Positions 17,636 to 22,101 are shown, counted from the stretch's first letter. The stretch is 64,000 bases of DNA from an uncultured Acidimicrobiaceae bacterium (GCA_913041415.1 CAJWHS010000001.1:3844-67843), one strand, 5' to 3'. Made by a program: numbers and translations. The notes: a model not told the origin generated them from the letters alone.

Positions 17636-19183
17636 GTGAACTCCGACCGTGGACCGCTGTTTGAGATCGACGCCATAGCCGACGGCCATGCACTCCCCCG
17701 CGTGCTCATTGCGGCACTCGAGGAGACCAGTTCACCGGTCTGCATCACCACCGCCGACCTTGATGCGCCCGGCCCCACGATCGTGTACGTCAACCCGGCC
17801 TACAGCCAGATGACCCGCCGCAACCGCGCCGATGTGATCGGCCGATCCCCGCGAATCATGCAAGGGCCGCTCACCGACCGTGCCGTCCTCGATCGTCTCC
17901 GAGATGATCTCGCCGGCGGGCGGCCCTTCAGCGGCGAGACGATCAACTACCGCGCCGACGGCGAACCGTTCCACATCGCATGGAGCATCGACCCAGTGCT
18001 CGACGATCACGGTGTTGCCACCCACTATGTGGCAACCCAGCGAGATGTCACCGCCGAGGTTGTTGCGGAGCGGGTGCGTCTCGCCGAGGAGGGTCTCGAC
18101 ACTGCGCTCGTCGATGCACTCGGCTCGCCCTCGGACACCGAGGCTGCGCTTGCGCTCCTGCTCGACGCAGTCGCCGTCGGCGCAGGACGAGTCACCGGCT
18201 ACGGAACGGCCGAAGTGACATTGCGAGATCCGGCGCTCGGGCCGCTCCGAGCGAGCGCTGACACCAGTGCCGAGCCGCCGACGAATCCCAACGTCACCGT
18301 CGAGGTTCGAGTCCCGATGACGCGGGTCGATGGCGTGACGATCGGAAGAATCACCATCGGAAACCTCCGCGTCGACGAGCGCAACATGATCGATCGACCG
18401 AGCCTCAACCGGGTCGCCGAGCGGGCGGCAGCGGTAATCACCGGTCTTGCCGAGTACCAGCGTCAGCGGCGCACTGCCCTTCGCCTGCAGGAGGCGATGC
18501 TCCCCCGGGTCGATGTAGCGCCCGACGGCTTCGAGATCGTCAGTCGCTACATCCCCGGCGACGATGGCGTCTACGTCGGCGGCGACTGGTTCGACGTGAT
18601 CGAGACGCCAACCGCCATCGTCCTTGTCGTGGGTGACGTGAGCGGCCACGGCATCGAAGCCGCCACCACCATGGCGCGGCTCCAGATACTCACTGCCGCT
18701 GAGATCCGAGCGGGGCGGCCGATCGATCAGGTTTTCGACGTTCTCGACCGTGCGTGCCGCGACGACGCCACGATGGCCACGATGACACTCGCCACGATCT
18801 CGACCGGCAGCGAGGAAGCCCTGATCTGGTCGGCCGGACACCTTCCGCCGGTTTGCTTTGGGCCCAGTGGCGCGACGCTGGTCTCGGTTTGCCCGACCCC
18901 ACCGCTCGGACATCTACGGGGCGAACAACCAACCGCCACGACCACACCGCTCTCTGATGGCGAGAGCCTGCTCTTCTTCACCGACGGACTCGTCGAGCAA
19001 CGGCGGGAGCCCCTCCCCGAGGGACTCGATCGCCTCTGTGCTGCGCTCGCACGCGCCGTTGGCCCACTCGACGACATCGTCGATTCGGTCATCGCGTCTC
19101 GCAGCACCGAGGACGATACGGCGGTCGTGGCCGTTCGGCGGCGCCCGTCATCCGAGGAGGAAGAATCGCTATCACCTCGCTAG
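17636..19183 (+). CDS. PAS(LOV-like)-GAF-like-PP2C (SpoIIE/RsbU-type) phosphatase
   Basis: A GTG start at 17636 is assumed, since codons upstream end in A/T. The LOV-like block reads IVYVNPAYSQMT...GRSPRIMQG...INYRADGEPF...ATQRDVT. PP2C motifs are GGDWFDV and VGDVSGHG. Confidence 0.8.
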   Translation: MNSDRGPLFEIDAIADGHALPRVLIAALEETSSPVCITTADLDAPGPTIVYVNPAYSQMTRRNRADVIGRSPRIMQGPLTDRAVLDRLRDDLAGGRPFSGETINYRADGEPFHIAWSIDPVLDDHGVATHYVATQRDVTAEVVAERVRLAEEGLDTALVDALGSPSDTEAALALLLDAVAVGAGRVTGYGTAEVTLRDPALGPLRASADTSAEPPTNPNVTVEVRVPMTRVDGVTIGRITIGNLRVDERNMIDRPSLNRVAERAAAVITGLAEYQRQRRTALRLQEAMLPRVDVAPDGFEIVSRYIPGDDGVYVGGDWFDVIETPTAIVLVVGDVSGHGIEAATTMARLQILTAAEIRAGRPIDQVFDVLDRACRDDATMATMTLATISTGSEEALIWSAGHLPPVCFGPSGATLVSVCPTPPLGHLRGEQPTATTTPLSDGESLLFFTDGLVEQRREPLPEGLDRLCAALARAVGPLDDIVDSVIASRSTEDDTAVVAVRRRPSSEEEESLSPR

Positions 19184-19192
19184 TCTCCGCTC

Positions 19193-19513
19193 ATGGCTGC
19201 TGAGCTGCTCGTTGACGAACCAGGCCCCGATCTTCTCCGCGTGGTCGGAGAGATCGACACCCACACCGCCCCGACGCTTGCGGAGCGGCTTGCCGACGTT
19301 CCGGCTCACATGGCACTCGGCATCGACCTCACCAACACGAGTTTCATCTCGTCCGCAGGTCTCGCCGTGCTGCTCGCTGCTGCAGAACGACTCGAAGCTG
19401 GTGGCGGCTCGCTCCGCCTCCTCGGCGCAAGCGAGACCGTGGTCCGGCTGCTCGAGCTGTCAGGCCTCGCAGGCCGGCTGCCGCTCGCCGACGAGCTCGG
19501 CGACAACCACTGA
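19193..19513 (+). CDS. STAS-domain anti-sigma-factor antagonist (RsbV/SpoIIAA-like)
   Basis: 106 aa. DLTNTSFISSAGLAVLL resembles the phosphorylatable DSSG loop, followed by RLLGASETVVRLLELSGL. Confidence 0.85.
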   Translation: MAAELLVDEPGPDLLRVVGEIDTHTAPTLAERLADVPAHMALGIDLTNTSFISSAGLAVLLAAAERLEAGGGSLRLLGASETVVRLLELSGLAGRLPLADELGDNH

Positions 19514-19873
19514 CCGACCATTCTCGGTCCGCAGCCGCAGATCGGCGCTGAGCGCCGCCACGATTCGCAAACCGCGGCCCCGCGCACCCGACTCGGCCCA
19601 CGCGCTCGCGAGCACAGGCTCCTCGGCCCCACGGTCGTTGACGACCTCTACTCGCAAGGTCGGACCCTCAGCCACCACAGTCAGATCGATCGCCGGAGCG
19701 TCGGTGTGGTCGATTGCGTTGGCAACGAGTTCGGTGACCACGATGTCGACATCGACCGACGGCGGTCGATCAAGGTCGGGTCGGGCATTGAGCCACGCTC
19801 GAACCTCGTGTCGAAGCGACGACAGATCGAGGTGCGACGGAGGAATCGACGCGTGGAATGAGGCGGCAGACAT
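19460..19873 (-). CDS. RsbW/SpoIIAB-type anti-sigma serine kinase (HATPase_c)
   Basis: 137 aa with N-box VVTELVANAIDH, G1-like NDRGAEEP and G2 GRGLRIV. Confidence 0.8.
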   Translation of the reverse strand: MSAASFHASIPPSHLDLSSLRHEVRAWLNARPDLDRPPSVDVDIVVTELVANAIDHTDAPAIDLTVVAEGPTLRVEVVNDRGAEEPVLASAWAESGARGRGLRIVAALSADLRLRTENGRSVVVAELVGERQPACEA

Positions 19874-19976
19874 GACATGAGAAGTCTTGCCGTTCCGGAC
19901 GTCGATGAAACCAATAGCTGAGAGTCAGCCCCTTCACGACAGGTACGCTGTCGCCAATGTCCCTTGGAGTTACGTG

Positions 19977-20357
19977 ATGTCGCCGCCCCCCACCCCAGCC
20001 GTTCCCGACGAAGCGGTCGTCGTCTCGGTGCCCGCCGACCCCGCCTACTTTCGTGTGCTTCGTCTCACCGCTGTGGTGGTCGCCGGCGAGCTCCTCGATG
20101 TGGAAGCGGTCGAGGACGCCCAGATCGGCGTCGAGGAGGCGGCGTCGATCCTGCTCGACGCAGGGCCGACCAGTCGGATTGAGGCCTCCTTCTGGTGCTC
20201 GAACGAGCGGCTCAGCGTCCGGCTTCGAAGCGGGACCGGCCCCGTGGCGGACACTGCTGACGATTTCCGCCGCACGATCCTCTCGGCCGTCGTCGACAGC
20301 GTAGCGATCGACCACGTCGCCGGCGCAACGACGGTCGAGTTCGATAAATCGGCGTGA
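19977..20357 (+). CDS. UsfX/RsbW-like anti-sigma factor with a degenerate ATP site
   Basis: 126 aa from ATG 19977. It has the RsbW-like layout, but the N-box position reads VEEAASILLD with no Asn. Its stop overlaps the sigma gene's GTG (GTGA at 20354-20357). Confidence 0.6.
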   Translation: MSPPPTPAVPDEAVVVSVPADPAYFRVLRLTAVVVAGELLDVEAVEDAQIGVEEAASILLDAGPTSRIEASFWCSNERLSVRLRSGTGPVADTADDFRRTILSAVVDSVAIDHVAGATTVEFDKSA

Positions 20358-21046
20358 GCGACGCGCCACTTGACGACCGTTTCGTCCGCTTTGCCGCTAA
20401 CGGCGACGAGACGTTGCGCAACGAACTGGTGCTCGAGCATCAGGGGCTTGCGATCGCGTTCGCTCGCCGTTACGCCCGCAGCGGGCGTGACAATGATCTT
20501 GAACAAATCGCCCTCGAGGCGCTGATCCTCGCCATCAACCGCTTCGACCCCGAGCGAGAAGTTCGCTTTTCGACCTACGCCGCTCGAGTCATCGATGGTC
20601 GACTCAAGCAGCACTTCCGCGACGACGGTTGGGACATCCGGGTTCCCCGCTCGATCAAACAGCTCGCGGTCGCCGTCCGCTCGACAACCGGCGAGCTGAC
20701 CAACGAACTGGGCAGAGTGCCGTTACCCGCAGAGCTCGCCGACCGTCTCGGTGTCACGGTCGACCAGATCGCACTTGCGCTCGACGCAGCCAACGCCCAC
20801 CGAGCCGGCGAACTCGATACCGATCCATCCCACGACGAAACATGGGATGTCGTCGACACCGGCCTCGTTGTTCCCGAACTGCTCGACGGGCTGCCCGAGC
20901 AGGAACGTGCGGTCGTCTCCCTCCGGTTCTTCGGCGAGCTCTCCCAGAGTCAGATTGCGGAGCGGATCGGCGTCAGCCAAATGCAGGTGTCGCGCCTGCT
21001 TCGTCGTGCCCTGGTGAGACTCCGCACCGAGATCGGCGACGCCTGA
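20354..21046 (+). CDS. SigF/SigB-family group 3 sigma-70 factor
   Basis: Region 2 reads DLEQIALEALILAINRFDPEREVRFSTYA. Region 4 HTH reads SQSQIAERIGVSQMQVSRLLRRAL. Confidence 0.9.
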   Translation: MSDAPLDDRFVRFAANGDETLRNELVLEHQGLAIAFARRYARSGRDNDLEQIALEALILAINRFDPEREVRFSTYAARVIDGRLKQHFRDDGWDIRVPRSIKQLAVAVRSTTGELTNELGRVPLPAELADRLGVTVDQIALALDAANAHRAGELDTDPSHDETWDVVDTGLVVPELLDGLPEQERAVVSLRFFGELSQSQIAERIGVSQMQVSRLLRRALVRLRTEIGDA

Positions 21047-21351
21047 CAGAGTGGCGAGTCGGCGTTCGTGCCGGCATGATGGCCGTGGCGGGCGGATCAA
21101 CCTGGGTCAGAGGGCAGCATTGACATGCAGCTTCCCCACACCCCCCTCGGCGTAGGGCCCCCAAGGAGCAGAGTTCGACTCACACCGAGACGTCTCGCCA
21201 CCACCATCCTGATGGACCCGACCGCCACAGCGACCCTCACCCTAGGGAAGGTCGCATGTGAACGAAAAGGGAACTTCATGTGGATTGCGCGGGGATTTCG
21301 CGGCGCTTGTCCACAAGCGTTCACAACCCCGTCGCGGTACGGTCAATCTTC

Positions 21352-22101
21352 GTGCGCCAACTGCTTCCCACCCCACTCGACGCGGTCGACCCGCTCACCC
21401 TCTATCCCTTCGATCATCGCCCCCGCCCGAGCAGCCGACCGTGGCTCATGGCGAACATGGTGGCGAGTGTCGATGGCGCGATCGCGATCGACGGTGTGAG
21501 CGGTGGGCTCGGCGGTGATGGTGACTCGATGGCCTTCCGGGCGATCCGAGCGAGCTGCGACTGGATCGTGGCGGCGGCGGGCACCATTCGGGCCGAGCGC
21601 TATCGGATCCCCCGAGCCACGGAGGAAACCGCAGCAGTGCGCGTCGTCACGGGCCGCAGTGAAGCACCGCGACTTGCGGTGGTGAGCGCTTCGGTCGATC
21701 TCGACCCCGAACTCCCGCTCTTCGCAGACCAGCGCGACGGCGAGGCCTGGCCGCTCGTGATCACCGGCGCAAACCCGCCGGCGGATCGCGTCGAGGCCCT
21801 CGAGGGACGAGCCGAGTGGCATCACACCGATACGGAACGCCCGACCGCTGAGGGTGTGCTTGCTGCGCTCGGCGAACGGGGTGCGGACGTGGTGCTCGCC
21901 GAAGGTGGCCCGATGTTCAATGGTCAGCTGGTCGACAGCGGCTTCATCGACGAACTCTGCCTTTCGATCTCGCCACACCTGGTGGGCGGAGGCTCCAGCC
22001 GTATCGTCAACGGAAGCGCAGCCACGATCCCTGCCGACCTGCGGCTGGATCGCTTGCTCGAACACGACGATGCACTATTCGCCCGATACGTCCGGGCGTG
22101 A
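21352..22101 (+). CDS. RibD C-terminal domain / dihydrofolate reductase-like pyrimidine reductase family protein
   Basis: Motifs NMVASVDGAIA and VLAEGGPMFNGQLVDSGFIDELCLSISPHLVGGG. GTG start assumed at 21352. Confidence 0.7.
   Translation: MRQLLPTPLDAVDPLTLYPFDHRPRPSSRPWLMANMVASVDGAIAIDGVSGGLGGDGDSMAFRAIRASCDWIVAAAGTIRAERYRIPRATEETAAVRVVTGRSEAPRLAVVSASVDLDPELPLFADQRDGEAWPLVITGANPPADRVEALEGRAEWHHTDTERPTAEGVLAALGERGADVVLAEGGPMFNGQLVDSGFIDELCLSISPHLVGGGSSRIVNGSAATIPADLRLDRLLEHDDALFARYVRA

What the first reader, a model, noticed from the sequence alone, without database searches (positions are those of the whole stretch)
17636..21046. Partner-switching sigma-factor locus in which kinase and sigma-binding roles appear split between two RsbW paralogues
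Five genes make up the module. They are a PAS/GAF-like/PP2C phosphatase (17636-19183, +), a STAS antagonist (19193-19513, +), and a canonical RsbW-type kinase on the opposite strand (19460-19873, -) with an intact N-box (ELVANAIDH) and G-boxes. The remaining two are a second RsbW-like protein (19977-20357, +) whose N-box position reads EEAASILLD with no Asn, and a SigF/SigB-type sigma (20354-21046). The second RsbW-like gene is translationally coupled to the sigma gene by a GTGA overlap. In textbook systems (RsbW, SpoIIAB) one protein both binds sigma and phosphorylates the antagonist. Here the gene coupled to sigma looks ATP-site-degenerate, as reported for mycobacterial UsfX, while the apparently competent kinase is encoded separately and convergent to its presumed STAS substrate. 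This suggests a three-protein switch of pseudokinase anti-sigma, stand-alone kinase and antagonist, gated by a sensor phosphatase.
Basis: partly seen in the sequence, partly recalled or inferred. Interest (0 to 1): 0.7.

Follow-up and report, generated by a model that had tools for sequence, protein, structure and literature searches.

The report
Split anti-sigma and kinase stress switch
A marine Acidimicrobiia genome carries a five-gene switch for a stress-type sigma factor in which one small protein probably holds the sigma factor and a separate kinase switches off the release factor. This division of labour has already been shown experimentally in Mycobacterium smegmatis, so the locus is a tidy new example, not a new mechanism.

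Summary
- a PAS-PP2C phosphatase
- a STAS antagonist
- a minus-strand HATPase_c_2 kinase
- a 126-aa RsbW-like protein whose stop overlaps (GTGA) the start of the next gene
- a SigB/F-like sigma factor

The 126-aa protein belongs to a large family of compact (~120-145 aa) actinobacterial RsbW-like proteins. None of 78 aligned members has the N-box Asn, and the G2 box and ATP lid are deleted. The family profile hits M. tuberculosis UsfX at E 1e-20. A confident AlphaFold model (pLDDT 92) matches the UsfX-SigF and UsfX-RsfB crystal structures best.

The minus-strand protein keeps an invariant N-box and G2 box. Its best solved relative is the kinase domain of Rv1364c.

All five genes are syntenic and under purifying selection in every relative recovered, down to 57-60% identity for the two RsbW-like proteins.

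The same split was demonstrated in M. smegmatis: RsbW1 is the anti-SigF factor, RsbW2 is the only kinase for RsfB, and a PP2C phosphatase provides the input (Oh et al. 2020, 2024).

Verdict: new member of a known kind, modest interest. The side observations are more unusual: a Cys-less LOV-type PAS input, a neighbouring rhodopsin gene in sister lineages, and a conserved convergent overlap of the kinase and STAS genes.

The parts
17636..19183 (+). Input phosphatase of 515 aa: an N-terminal LOV-type PAS domain lacking the adduct Cys (GRSPRIMQG), an unassigned linker of ~180 aa, and a C-terminal SpoIIE/PP2C domain.
   Evidence: Pfam PAS_9 9e-15 and SpoIIE 1.3e-33. The PAS domain hits LOV structures at E ~1e-20. 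The PP2C domain's best PDB hit is the RsbU domain of Rv1364c, 3ke6, at 5.9e-23. The motifs GGDWFD, VGDVSGHG, FFTDGL and DDTAV are conserved in relatives. No GAF signal in the linker.
19193..19513 (+). STAS anti-sigma-factor antagonist of 106 aa. The candidate phospho-acceptor is Ser54 (codon 19352-19354) in FISSAGL.
   Evidence: STAS 1e-15 and TIGR00377 at 67 bits, above the cut-off. It aligns to RsbV (6m36_B, 2.4e-10), SpoIIAA (1th8_B) and RsfB (8ih8_A), with Ser54 on the D-S-x-G-L serine. That this column is the phospho-acceptor (RsbV Ser56, SpoIIAA Ser58) is from my own knowledge. Ser54 is conserved in all relatives. dN/dS 0.06-0.16.
19460..19873 (-). Stand-alone RsbW-type Ser kinase of 137 aa. 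N-box VVTELVANAIDHT (about 19706-19732), G1-like N-D-x-G, G2 GxRGRGL (about 19568-19588). Its 3' end overlaps the STAS gene convergently by 54 bp (19460-19513).
   Evidence: HATPase_c_2 at 39.6 bits, above the 27.4 cut-off. E48, N52, H56, G82 and G96-R-G-R-G-L are invariant in 10 homologues down to 55% identity. The family profile's best PDB hit is the kinase domain of Rv1364c, 3ke6, at 1.3e-4. dN/dS 0.12-0.26.
19874..19976 (.). Divergent 103-bp intergenic region between the kinase gene and the anti-sigma/sigma operon. It holds blocks that are invariant across relatives: TTGCC 19887-19891, GAAACC 19907-19912 and GGTAC 19942-19946, plus the Shine-Dalgarno sequence GGAG 19966-19969.
   Evidence: Alignment of 7 loci and the sequence itself. 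Read on the minus strand, the blocks give GGTTTC-N15-GGCAAG, ending 12 nt before the kinase ATG. This resembles a SigB/F-type -35 with an imperfect -10. That reading is inference only. A strict GTTT-N13-18-GGGTA search found no site in the window.
19977..20357 (+). UsfX-type compact RsbW-like anti-sigma factor of 126 aa. The N-box position reads EEAASILLDA (20133-20162), with Ile58 in place of Asn. The ATP lid and G2 box are deleted. R29, D47 and E54 are invariant across the family.
   Evidence: 571 family representatives at E<=1e-3. 0/50 and 0/78 aligned members have Asn at the N-box column. The family profile hits UsfX (8jzt_B, 8ih8_C) at 1.2e-20, RsbW at 4e-18 and SpoIIAB at 4e-5. The AF2 model has pLDDT 92.2. 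Foldseek top hits are 8jzt_D and 8ih8_D, with TM-score normalised to the query 0.76-0.79. The start codon is supported by the Shine-Dalgarno sequence and by conservation.
20354..21046 (+). Group-3 SigB/SigF-like sigma factor of 230 aa, translationally coupled to the preceding gene by a GTGA overlap.
   Evidence: Sigma70 regions 2, 3 and 4. TIGR02980 SigBFG 8e-56, at 189 bits below the 234 cut-off. PDB hits: sigmaF 1l0o_C at 6e-31 and Mtb SigF region 4 (8jzt_A) at 3e-15. The adjacency and 4-nt start/stop overlap recur at the homologous coordinates in the relatives (gene; tblastn 49).

Best explanation
The locus is a self-contained partner-switching module of the mycobacterial SigF type, in which two RsbW-like proteins divide the work.

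1. The 126-aa UsfX-type protein is made in a fixed ratio with the sigma factor through translational coupling. It sequesters the sigma factor and cannot phosphorylate anything, because it has no N-box Asn, no G1 Asp, no G2 box and no ATP lid.
2. The unphosphorylated STAS protein binds this anti-sigma factor and frees the sigma factor.
3. The separately encoded minus-strand kinase phosphorylates STAS on Ser54 and so inactivates it.
4. The PAS-PP2C phosphatase removes that phosphate when its flavin-type PAS sensor is triggered.

Shown here: the domain identities, the motif states, the fold, and the conservation of synteny and sequence. Inferred by homology to M. smegmatis RsbW1/RsbW2/RsfB/RsfR and to M. 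tuberculosis UsfX: who binds whom, and who phosphorylates whom.
For: Sigma-coupled protein:
- It belongs to a compact RsbW family with R29, D47 and E54 invariant. R29 aligns with SpoIIAB Arg20; that Arg20 is the antagonist-docking residue is from my own knowledge.
- No member has the N-box Asn, and the G2/lid region is deleted relative to the kinase.
- The family profile hits Mtb UsfX at 1.2e-20.
- The AF2 model (pLDDT 92.2) best matches UsfX in complex with SigF (8jzt) and with RsfB (8ih8).
- The GTGA coupling to sigma is seen in the sequence, and the same 4-nt start/stop overlap follows from the gene coordinates in relatives.

Kinase:
- HATPase_c_2 scores above the cut-off.
- The N-box and G2 box are invariant across homologues down to 55% identity.
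- Its closest solved relative is the kinase domain of Rv1364c. Rv1364c autophosphorylates its own STAS domain, as stated in PMC7693655.

STAS: the Ser aligned to the D-S-x-G-L serine of RsbV, SpoIIAA and RsfB is conserved.

PP2C: the catalytic motifs are conserved, and the best PDB hit is the phosphatase domain of Rv1364c.

All five genes are syntenic in L003/L008, L004, L005, L006 and L012, and as far as the contig reaches in L001/L007. dN/dS is 0.06-0.30.

Experimental precedent for exactly this split comes from PMC7693655 and PMC10950880.

A distant locus, L010, repeats the pattern: compact RsbW, then sigma, then a kinase with N, G1 and G2 boxes, then STAS.
Against: - No binding or phosphorylation was tested, and AlphaFold-multimer was not available.
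- The window protein alone is not significantly similar to UsfX (25% identity, E 3.8). The A1 profile of close relatives is only weakly similar (hhalign E 0.002, probability 14%). The link rests on the broad family profile and on the fold.
- Missing motifs do not prove inactivity. UsfX was reported to phosphorylate myelin basic protein in vitro (PMC1847690). [quoted passage not shown]
- The kinase G1 box has one Gly (N-D/E-x-G), not DxGxG.
- In loci L009, L015 and L016 the compact family member is not next to a sigma gene. There a different HATPase_c_2 protein precedes the sigma gene. Family membership alone therefore does not fix the anti-sigma role. M. smegmatis RsbW3 shows that an RsbW1-like protein can act as an antagonist.
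Confidence: 0.7

Rival explanations
1. Canonical arrangement with an accessory. The minus-strand HATPase_c_2 protein is the true bifunctional anti-sigma factor and kinase, as in B. subtilis RsbW. The 126-aa protein is a modulator: for example an RsbW3-like decoy that heterodimerises with the anti-sigma factor, or that titrates STAS.
For: In L009, L015 and L016 the compact family member is not sigma-coupled, and an N-box-bearing HATPase_c_2 gene precedes the sigma gene. [quoted passage not shown]
Against: In the window clade the compact gene is the one coupled to sigma by GTGA, across all relatives. The kinase is on the opposite strand, next to STAS. The model's best structural matches are UsfX in its complexes with SigF and RsfB. 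M. smegmatis RsbW2, the motif-bearing paralogue, does not bind SigF.
Confidence: 0.12
2. The 126-aa protein keeps an unconventional nucleotide-dependent activity and itself phosphorylates STAS. The minus-strand kinase would then be redundant or serve another target.
For: UsfX was reported to phosphorylate myelin basic protein (PMC1847690). A cited 2008 title describes nucleotide binding and hydrolysis by UsfX. The N-box Glu (E54) is invariant in the family.
Against: The N-box Asn is absent in 0/78 members. The G1 Asp position is not conserved, and the G2 box and lid are deleted. In M. smegmatis RsfB is unphosphorylated in a rsbW2 deletion mutant, so RsbW1 does not phosphorylate it.
Confidence: 0.05
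3. The PAS-PP2C, STAS and kinase genes form a separate partner-switching unit with a non-sigma output, or cross-talk to other targets. On this view they merely sit beside an independent usfX-sigF-like operon.
For: The two units are on different transcripts. Rv1364c shows that PAS-PP2C-kinase-STAS can exist as one self-contained unit. Distant loci carry compact RsbW plus sigma without a nearby kinase (L011, L013, L014).
Against: Adjacency of the five genes is strictly conserved from ~92% down to ~57% identity of the two RsbW-like proteins. No other STAS, RsbW or PP2C paralogue lies in the 64-kb window. The anti-sigma family keeps the invariant Arg that aligns with SpoIIAB Arg20; its role in antagonist docking is from my own knowledge.
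Confidence: 0.1

Closest known systems
Mycobacterium smegmatis SigF partner-switching system (RsbW1, RsbW2, RsfB, RsfR; Oh et al. 2020 PMC7693655; Oh & Oh 2024 PMC10950880)
   Same: An anti-sigma factor without kinase function is encoded directly upstream of a SigF-type sigma gene. A separate RsbW paralogue with N, G1 and G2 motifs is encoded next to the STAS antagonist and phosphorylates it. A PP2C phosphatase with an N-terminal sensor or receiver domain reactivates the antagonist.
   Different: In M. smegmatis the genes are spread over three loci, and rsfB-rsbW2 is a co-oriented operon. Here all five genes are contiguous, and the kinase gene converges on the STAS gene and overlaps it. The input domain is a LOV-type PAS, not a receiver domain fed by a CHASE3 histidine kinase. 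No RsfA or RsbW3 counterparts are present in the window. Orthology of the kinase to RsbW2 was not tested, because no RsbW2 sequence was available.
Mycobacterium tuberculosis UsfX (Rv3287c)-SigF, PDB 8JZT and 8IH8
   Same: A compact GHKL-like fold without an ATP lid. The family profile matches at E 1e-20 and these are the top Foldseek hits. The gene sits immediately upstream of the sigma gene.
   Different: Direct pairwise similarity is not significant (25% identity, E 3.8). The window clade is a divergent Acidimicrobiia branch of 126 aa, whereas the two UsfX PDB chains are 141 and 145 residues. According to PMC10950880, no RsbW2 counterpart has been identified in M. tuberculosis; here the kinase is adjacent.
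Mycobacterium tuberculosis Rv1364c (PAS-PP2C-RsbW kinase-STAS in one polypeptide; PDB 3KE6)
   Same: The PP2C domain (5.9e-23) and the kinase domain (1.3e-4, family profile) of the window proteins each find the corresponding Rv1364c domain as their best solved relative. The set of modules is the same: PAS, PP2C, kinase, STAS.
   Different: Here the modules are three separate genes on two strands, not one fused protein.
Bacillus subtilis RsbU/RsbV/RsbW-sigmaB and SpoIIE/SpoIIAA/SpoIIAB-sigmaF
   Same: The logic is the same: sigma, anti-sigma factor, phosphorylatable STAS antagonist and PP2C input phosphatase. The STAS and sigma proteins align well to the Bacillus proteins.
   Different: In Bacillus a single RsbW or SpoIIAB protein both binds sigma and phosphorylates the antagonist. 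Here the two functions appear to lie on two proteins.

Membership tests
UsfX/RsbW1-type compact anti-sigma factor (126-aa protein, 19977-20357) | RsbW/SpoIIAB-like GHKL alpha/beta fold | tested here: met
   AF2 model pLDDT 92.2, pTM 0.86. Foldseek hits 8jzt_D at E 5e-8 with TM 0.76, 8ih8_D with TM 0.79, then RsbW 6m36 and SpoIIAB 1th8.
UsfX/RsbW1-type compact anti-sigma factor (126-aa protein, 19977-20357) | Sequence homology to UsfX | tested here: inconclusive
   The broad family profile A3 hits UsfX at 1.2e-20. The window protein alone gives E 3.8, and the close-relative profile A1 gives hhalign E 0.002 with probability 14%. Homology is transitive through intermediate sequences found at 1e-14 to 1e-6 in 1.8 billion proteins.
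UsfX/RsbW1-type compact anti-sigma factor (126-aa protein, 19977-20357) | Kinase motifs absent (N-box Asn, G1, G2, ATP lid) | tested here: met
   Ile58 sits at the Asn column, and 0/78 family members have Asn there. The G1 Asp column is variable. An 8-residue deletion lies where the kinase has GARGRGL.
UsfX/RsbW1-type compact anti-sigma factor (126-aa protein, 19977-20357) | Gene directly upstream of, and co-expressed with, a SigF/SigB-type sigma gene | tested here: met
   GTGA overlap. The same arrangement occurs in L001, L003-L006 and L012, and in the distant loci L010, L011, L013 and L014. It does not occur in L009, L015 or L016.
UsfX/RsbW1-type compact anti-sigma factor (126-aa protein, 19977-20357) | Binds the cognate sigma factor, and is displaced by unphosphorylated STAS | not testable with these tools
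   Needs pull-down, native PAGE or ITC, or at least AlphaFold-multimer.
RsbW2-type stand-alone STAS kinase (137-aa protein, 19460-19873) | HATPase_c_2 domain with N, G1 and G2 boxes | tested here: met
   39.6 bits against a cut-off of 27.4. N-box E48/N52/H56 and G2 G96-x-R-G-R-G-L are invariant. G1 is reduced to N79-D/E-x-G82.
RsbW2-type stand-alone STAS kinase (137-aa protein, 19460-19873) | Encoded beside its STAS substrate | tested here: met
   Adjacent to the STAS gene, with a convergent overlap of 36-54 bp conserved in relatives. In M. smegmatis the pair is a co-oriented operon.
RsbW2-type stand-alone STAS kinase (137-aa protein, 19460-19873) | Phosphorylates the STAS Ser and does not bind sigma | not testable with these tools
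   Requires an in vitro kinase assay and interaction assays.
RsbW2-type stand-alone STAS kinase (137-aa protein, 19460-19873) | Orthology to MSMEG_6129 | not tested
   No RsbW2 sequence could be obtained; the paper's supplement held none.
STAS anti-sigma-factor antagonist (RsbV/SpoIIAA/RsfB) | STAS fold and family score, plus a conserved phospho-acceptor Ser in the D/S-S-x-G-L motif | tested here: met
   TIGR00377 scores 67.3 against a cut-off of 53.45. Ser54 aligns to the D-S-x-G-L serine of RsbV and SpoIIAA. Ser54 is invariant in relatives.
PP2C/SpoIIE partner-switching phosphatase (RsbU/RsbP/RsfR/Rv1364c-N) | SpoIIE domain with metal-binding Asp motifs and an N-terminal sensor domain | tested here: met
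   SpoIIE scores 117 bits against a cut-off of 25. GGDWFD, GDVSGHG, TDGL and DDTAV are conserved. 3ke6 hit at 5.9e-23. PAS domain present.
SigB/SigF/SigG sigma subfamily (TIGR02980) | Score above the curated subfamily cut-off | tested here: not met
   189.2 bits against a cut-off of 234.35. Regions 2, 3 and 4 are present, and the best PDB hits are SigF-type sigmas. It is therefore SigB/F-like by best match but outside the curated threshold.
LOV photoreceptor domain (PAS of the phosphatase) | Adduct-forming Cys in GxNCRFLQG | tested here: not met
   The motif reads GRSPRIMQG, with Cys replaced by Pro, in the window and in all relatives. The LOV-HK and YtvA NCBIfam scores are far below their cut-offs.

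The most novel reading that the evidence does not exclude
The cassette is a light- or redox-gated general-stress switch of marine Acidimicrobiia. A Cys-less, LOV-type flavin PAS domain on the PP2C phosphatase senses light or redox state. Consistent with this, a rhodopsin gene sits immediately and divergently upstream of the phosphatase gene in sister lineages. A second, RNA-level control layer may come from the conserved convergent overlap of the kinase (off) and phosphatase-STAS (on) transcripts. Mutual antisense interference between them could sharpen the switch or make it bistable.
Probability: 0.15. Interest if true: 0.55.

Novelty: new member of a known kind. Interest (0 to 1): 0.3.

Why it matters
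The locus shows that the mycobacterial split of RsbW functions, into a kinase-dead anti-sigma factor and a dedicated antagonist kinase, is not peculiar to mycobacteria. It also occurs in deep-branching marine Actinomycetota, where it is packaged as one compact five-gene cassette.

The underlying family of compact, lid-less RsbW proteins is large (571 representatives at 50% identity clustering). Many members are annotated as 'serine/threonine-protein kinase RsbW', which is probably wrong for them.

The cassette would be a convenient minimal system for reconstituting the split switch in vitro. Its flavin-type PAS input also suggests which signal to test.

Tried and rejected
- A first AlphaFold run on the shallow 9-sequence alignment gave pLDDT 54.6 and was discarded. 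The 78-sequence alignment fixed this.
Alignment A1 found only five genome loci, all in the same clade.
- Single-sequence PDB searches of both RsbW-like proteins were uninformative. Profiles were needed.
- A strict SigF/SigB promoter pattern (GTTT-N13-18-GGGTA) has no match in the window. The sigma-70 and terminator scans gave nothing above chance in the module.
- No GAF signal was found in the phosphatase linker.
- Rhodopsin is not encoded in the window or in the closest relatives.
- Literature searches for 'pseudokinase' with partner switching and anti-sigma, and for LOV domain with SpoIIE and anti-sigma, found nothing relevant.
- The supplement of PMC7693655 holds no RsbW2 sequence, so orthology of the kinase to RsbW2 stays untested.
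- Considered and rejected: that the 126-aa ORF is a decayed pseudogene. It has dN/dS of 0.22-0.23, a conserved start, and a large family with invariant residues.

Full report
**Observation.** The window is high-GC (about 66%). It comes from a marine Acidimicrobiaceae metagenome-assembled genome: the 126-aa protein is 100% identical to an NCBI 'MAG: Acidimicrobiaceae bacterium' hypothetical protein. All five ORFs are present as described.

Pfam and NCBIfam give the following:
- 17636-19183 (+): PAS plus SpoIIE/PP2C.
- 19193-19513 (+): STAS. The anti-sigma-antagonist model TIGR00377 scores above its cut-off.
- 19460-19873 (-): HATPase_c_2, above its cut-off.
- 19977-20357 (+): only a sub-threshold match to the N-terminus of RsbW.
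- 20354-21046 (+): a group-3 sigma factor. Its best matches are SigB/F/G models, but it scores below their curated cut-off.

The GTGA stop/start overlap is in the sequence. The phosphatase GTG start at 17636 has a G-rich ribosome-binding stretch upstream, and it matches the gene length in relatives. The 'GAF-like' middle region has no detectable family. The kinase and STAS genes also overlap convergently by 54 bp.

**The sigma-coupled protein.** A word-indexed search found only close relatives with no annotation. An exhaustive HMMER profile search of 1.84 billion representatives found 571 proteins at E<=1e-3, almost all 120-145 aa long.

Alignments of 50 and 78 members show three invariant residues, R29, D47 and E54. 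No member has Asn at the N-box Asn column, where the residue is usually Leu, Val, Gln or Ile. Only a 11-15 residue loop lies where canonical RsbW and SpoIIAB carry G1, the ATP lid and G2.

A profile-profile alignment against the family of the neighbouring kinase makes this explicit (E 3.8e-5):
- E54 aligns with kinase E48.
- Ile58 aligns with Asn52.
- Gly86 aligns with the G1 Asp80.
- The G2 segment is an 8-residue gap.

The 78-sequence family profile hits the M. tuberculosis 'Anti-sigma-F factor RsbW' (UsfX) chains of 8JZT and 8IH8 at E 1.2e-20, collinearly and without a lid insertion. B. subtilis RsbW follows at 4e-18 and SpoIIAB at 4e-5. In that alignment the invariant R29 falls on SpoIIAB Arg20. 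From my own knowledge, Arg20 is the residue needed for SpoIIAA docking.

With the deep alignment AlphaFold gives pLDDT 92.2. The best Foldseek matches are UsfX in the SigF-UsfX complex and in the UsfX-RsfB complex.

Directly, the window protein is only 25% identical to UsfX, which is not significant. It is therefore a divergent branch of the UsfX-like family, not a close orthologue.

**The minus-strand protein.** Ten homologues down to 55% identity keep VVTELVANAIDHT (N-box), N-D/E-x-G (a reduced G1) and G-x-R-G-R-G-L (G2) invariant. The family profile's best solved relative is the RsbW-like kinase domain of Rv1364c. The literature describes that domain as autophosphorylating its own STAS domain.

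The phosphatase domain likewise finds the Rv1364c PP2C domain as its best solved relative, at 5.9e-23. The left half of the locus therefore looks like an unfused Rv1364c (PAS-PP2C, kinase, STAS). The right half looks like a usfX-sigF operon.

The STAS protein aligns to RsbV, SpoIIAA and RsfB, with Ser54 on the D-S-x-G-L serine. From my own knowledge, that serine is the phospho-acceptor (RsbV Ser56, SpoIIAA Ser58). Ser54 is conserved in all relatives.

**Conservation.** The five-gene order and orientation recur in three Acidimicrobiaceae/Acidimicrobiales MAGs in which the two RsbW-like proteins are about 90% identical to the window's. They also recur in two deeper lineages at about 57-60%, and in a 68-73% relative as far as its contig reaches. 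Pairwise dN/dS is 0.06-0.30 for all five genes, including both RsbW-like genes. No further STAS, RsbW or PP2C paralogues lie in the 64-kb window.

Eight other loci carrying distant members of the compact family were inspected.
- The compact gene directly precedes a group-3 sigma gene in L010, L011, L013 and L014.
- L010 also has a second, motif-complete kinase followed by STAS.
- In L009, L015 and L016 the compact gene is not sigma-coupled, and another HATPase_c_2 gene precedes the sigma gene.

The family's role is therefore not uniform, and this is the main reason for caution.

**Mechanism.** The compact protein is a kinase-dead anti-sigma factor made stoichiometrically with sigma. The convergent gene encodes the dedicated kinase that inactivates the STAS antagonist. 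The PAS-PP2C protein reactivates the antagonist in response to its sensor.

What is shown here is domain identity, motif state, fold, synteny and selection. What is inferred is the interaction map.

That inference rests on direct experiments in M. smegmatis:
- RsbW1, the UsfX orthologue next to sigF, binds SigF.
- RsbW2, with N, G1 and G2 conserved and encoded next to rsfB, does not bind SigF and is the only kinase of RsfB Ser63.
- Phospho-mimetic RsfB no longer binds RsbW1 (PMC7693655).
- The receiver-PP2C protein RsfR dephosphorylates RsfB (PMC10950880).

Points against certainty: UsfX has been reported to phosphorylate a model substrate and to bind or hydrolyse nucleotides, and RsbW3 shows that an RsbW1-like protein can act as an antagonist.

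**Comparison and novelty.** The design is a known kind. Three things differ here:
- All parts are packaged in one locus in a marine Acidimicrobiia lineage.
- The input domain is a PAS domain. By sequence it is LOV-type (E about 1e-20 to LOV structures), but it has Pro in place of the adduct-forming Cys in every relative.
- The kinase gene is convergent with the STAS gene and overlaps it, whereas in M. smegmatis the two form a co-oriented operon.

In the two deeper lineages a bacteriorhodopsin-family gene sits divergently next to the phosphatase gene. That hints at a light-related context, but the gene is absent from the window.

I rate the finding a new member of a known kind with modest interest.

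Noticed in passing
window 17636-18100 (PAS domain of the phosphatase); same region in L003-L006 and L012: By sequence the PAS domain is LOV-type. PDB LOV proteins hit at E ~1e-20, and NCBIfam LOV-HK and YtvA models hit at 1e-21 and 4e-20 but far below their cut-offs. The flavin-adduct motif GRNCRFLQG reads GRSPRIMQG, with Cys replaced by Pro, and this is conserved in all relatives. The top PDB hit is 3ewk ('Sensor protein'), which I believe is the FAD-binding PAS pair of MmoS. This suggests a Cys-less flavin sensor of redox or light.
   Followed up: partly
L003:2717-3514 (-), L012:2744-3535 (-), L008:2738-3532 (-): In the deeper-branching relatives a Bac_rhodopsin gene lies divergently, immediately upstream of the PAS-PP2C gene. 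tblastn finds no rhodopsin in the window or in the close relatives L004-L006.
   Followed up: yes
window 19460-19513: The kinase (-) and STAS (+) coding regions overlap convergently by 54 bp. A 36-54 bp overlap, and the kinase's C-terminal tail (ELVGERQPxxEA), are conserved in relatives. The two transcripts must therefore run into each other, which allows antisense or transcriptional interference between the 'off' and 'on' arms of the switch.
   Followed up: partly
window 19874-19976: The divergent intergenic region has blocks that are invariant across relatives in which the two RsbW-like proteins are only 57-60% identical. On the minus strand they read GGTTTC (19912-19907), 15 nt, then GGCAAG (19891-19886), ending 12 nt before the kinase ATG. 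This is a SigB/F-like -35 with an imperfect -10, and it implies a near-leaderless mRNA. If real, the locus sigma factor might drive the kinase as negative feedback. A conserved GGTAC lies at 19942-19946 upstream of the anti-sigma Shine-Dalgarno sequence.
   Followed up: partly
L009:3816-4247 (-), L015:3067-3495 (+), L016:2913-3347 (+): In these distant loci the sigma-adjacent RsbW-like protein has an N-box (SELATNA) and a GRGL G2 box but no G1 D-x-G. A compact lid-less family member sits separately, next to STAS genes. This is a third arrangement of two RsbW paralogues, and its division of labour is unclear.
   Followed up: no
L001:2008-4899 (-), L012:7081-9996 (-), L003:7064-9467 (-): In the deeper relatives a ribonucleotide reductase gene (Ribonuc_red_lgC/TSCPD domains) is inserted between the sigma gene and the RibD_C gene. 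In the window and in L004-L006 the RibD_C gene (21280-22101) follows the sigma gene directly.
   Followed up: no
window 18068-18625: The ~180-aa segment between the PAS and PP2C domains matches no Pfam family, although it is conserved among relatives.
   Followed up: partly
family-wide (proteins P0190, P0196, P0201-P0216 and others): Many members of the compact, lid-less family are annotated by JGI as 'serine/threonine-protein kinase RsbW', although they lack the N-box Asn and the G2 box and lid. This is probably a systematic over-annotation.
   Followed up: no
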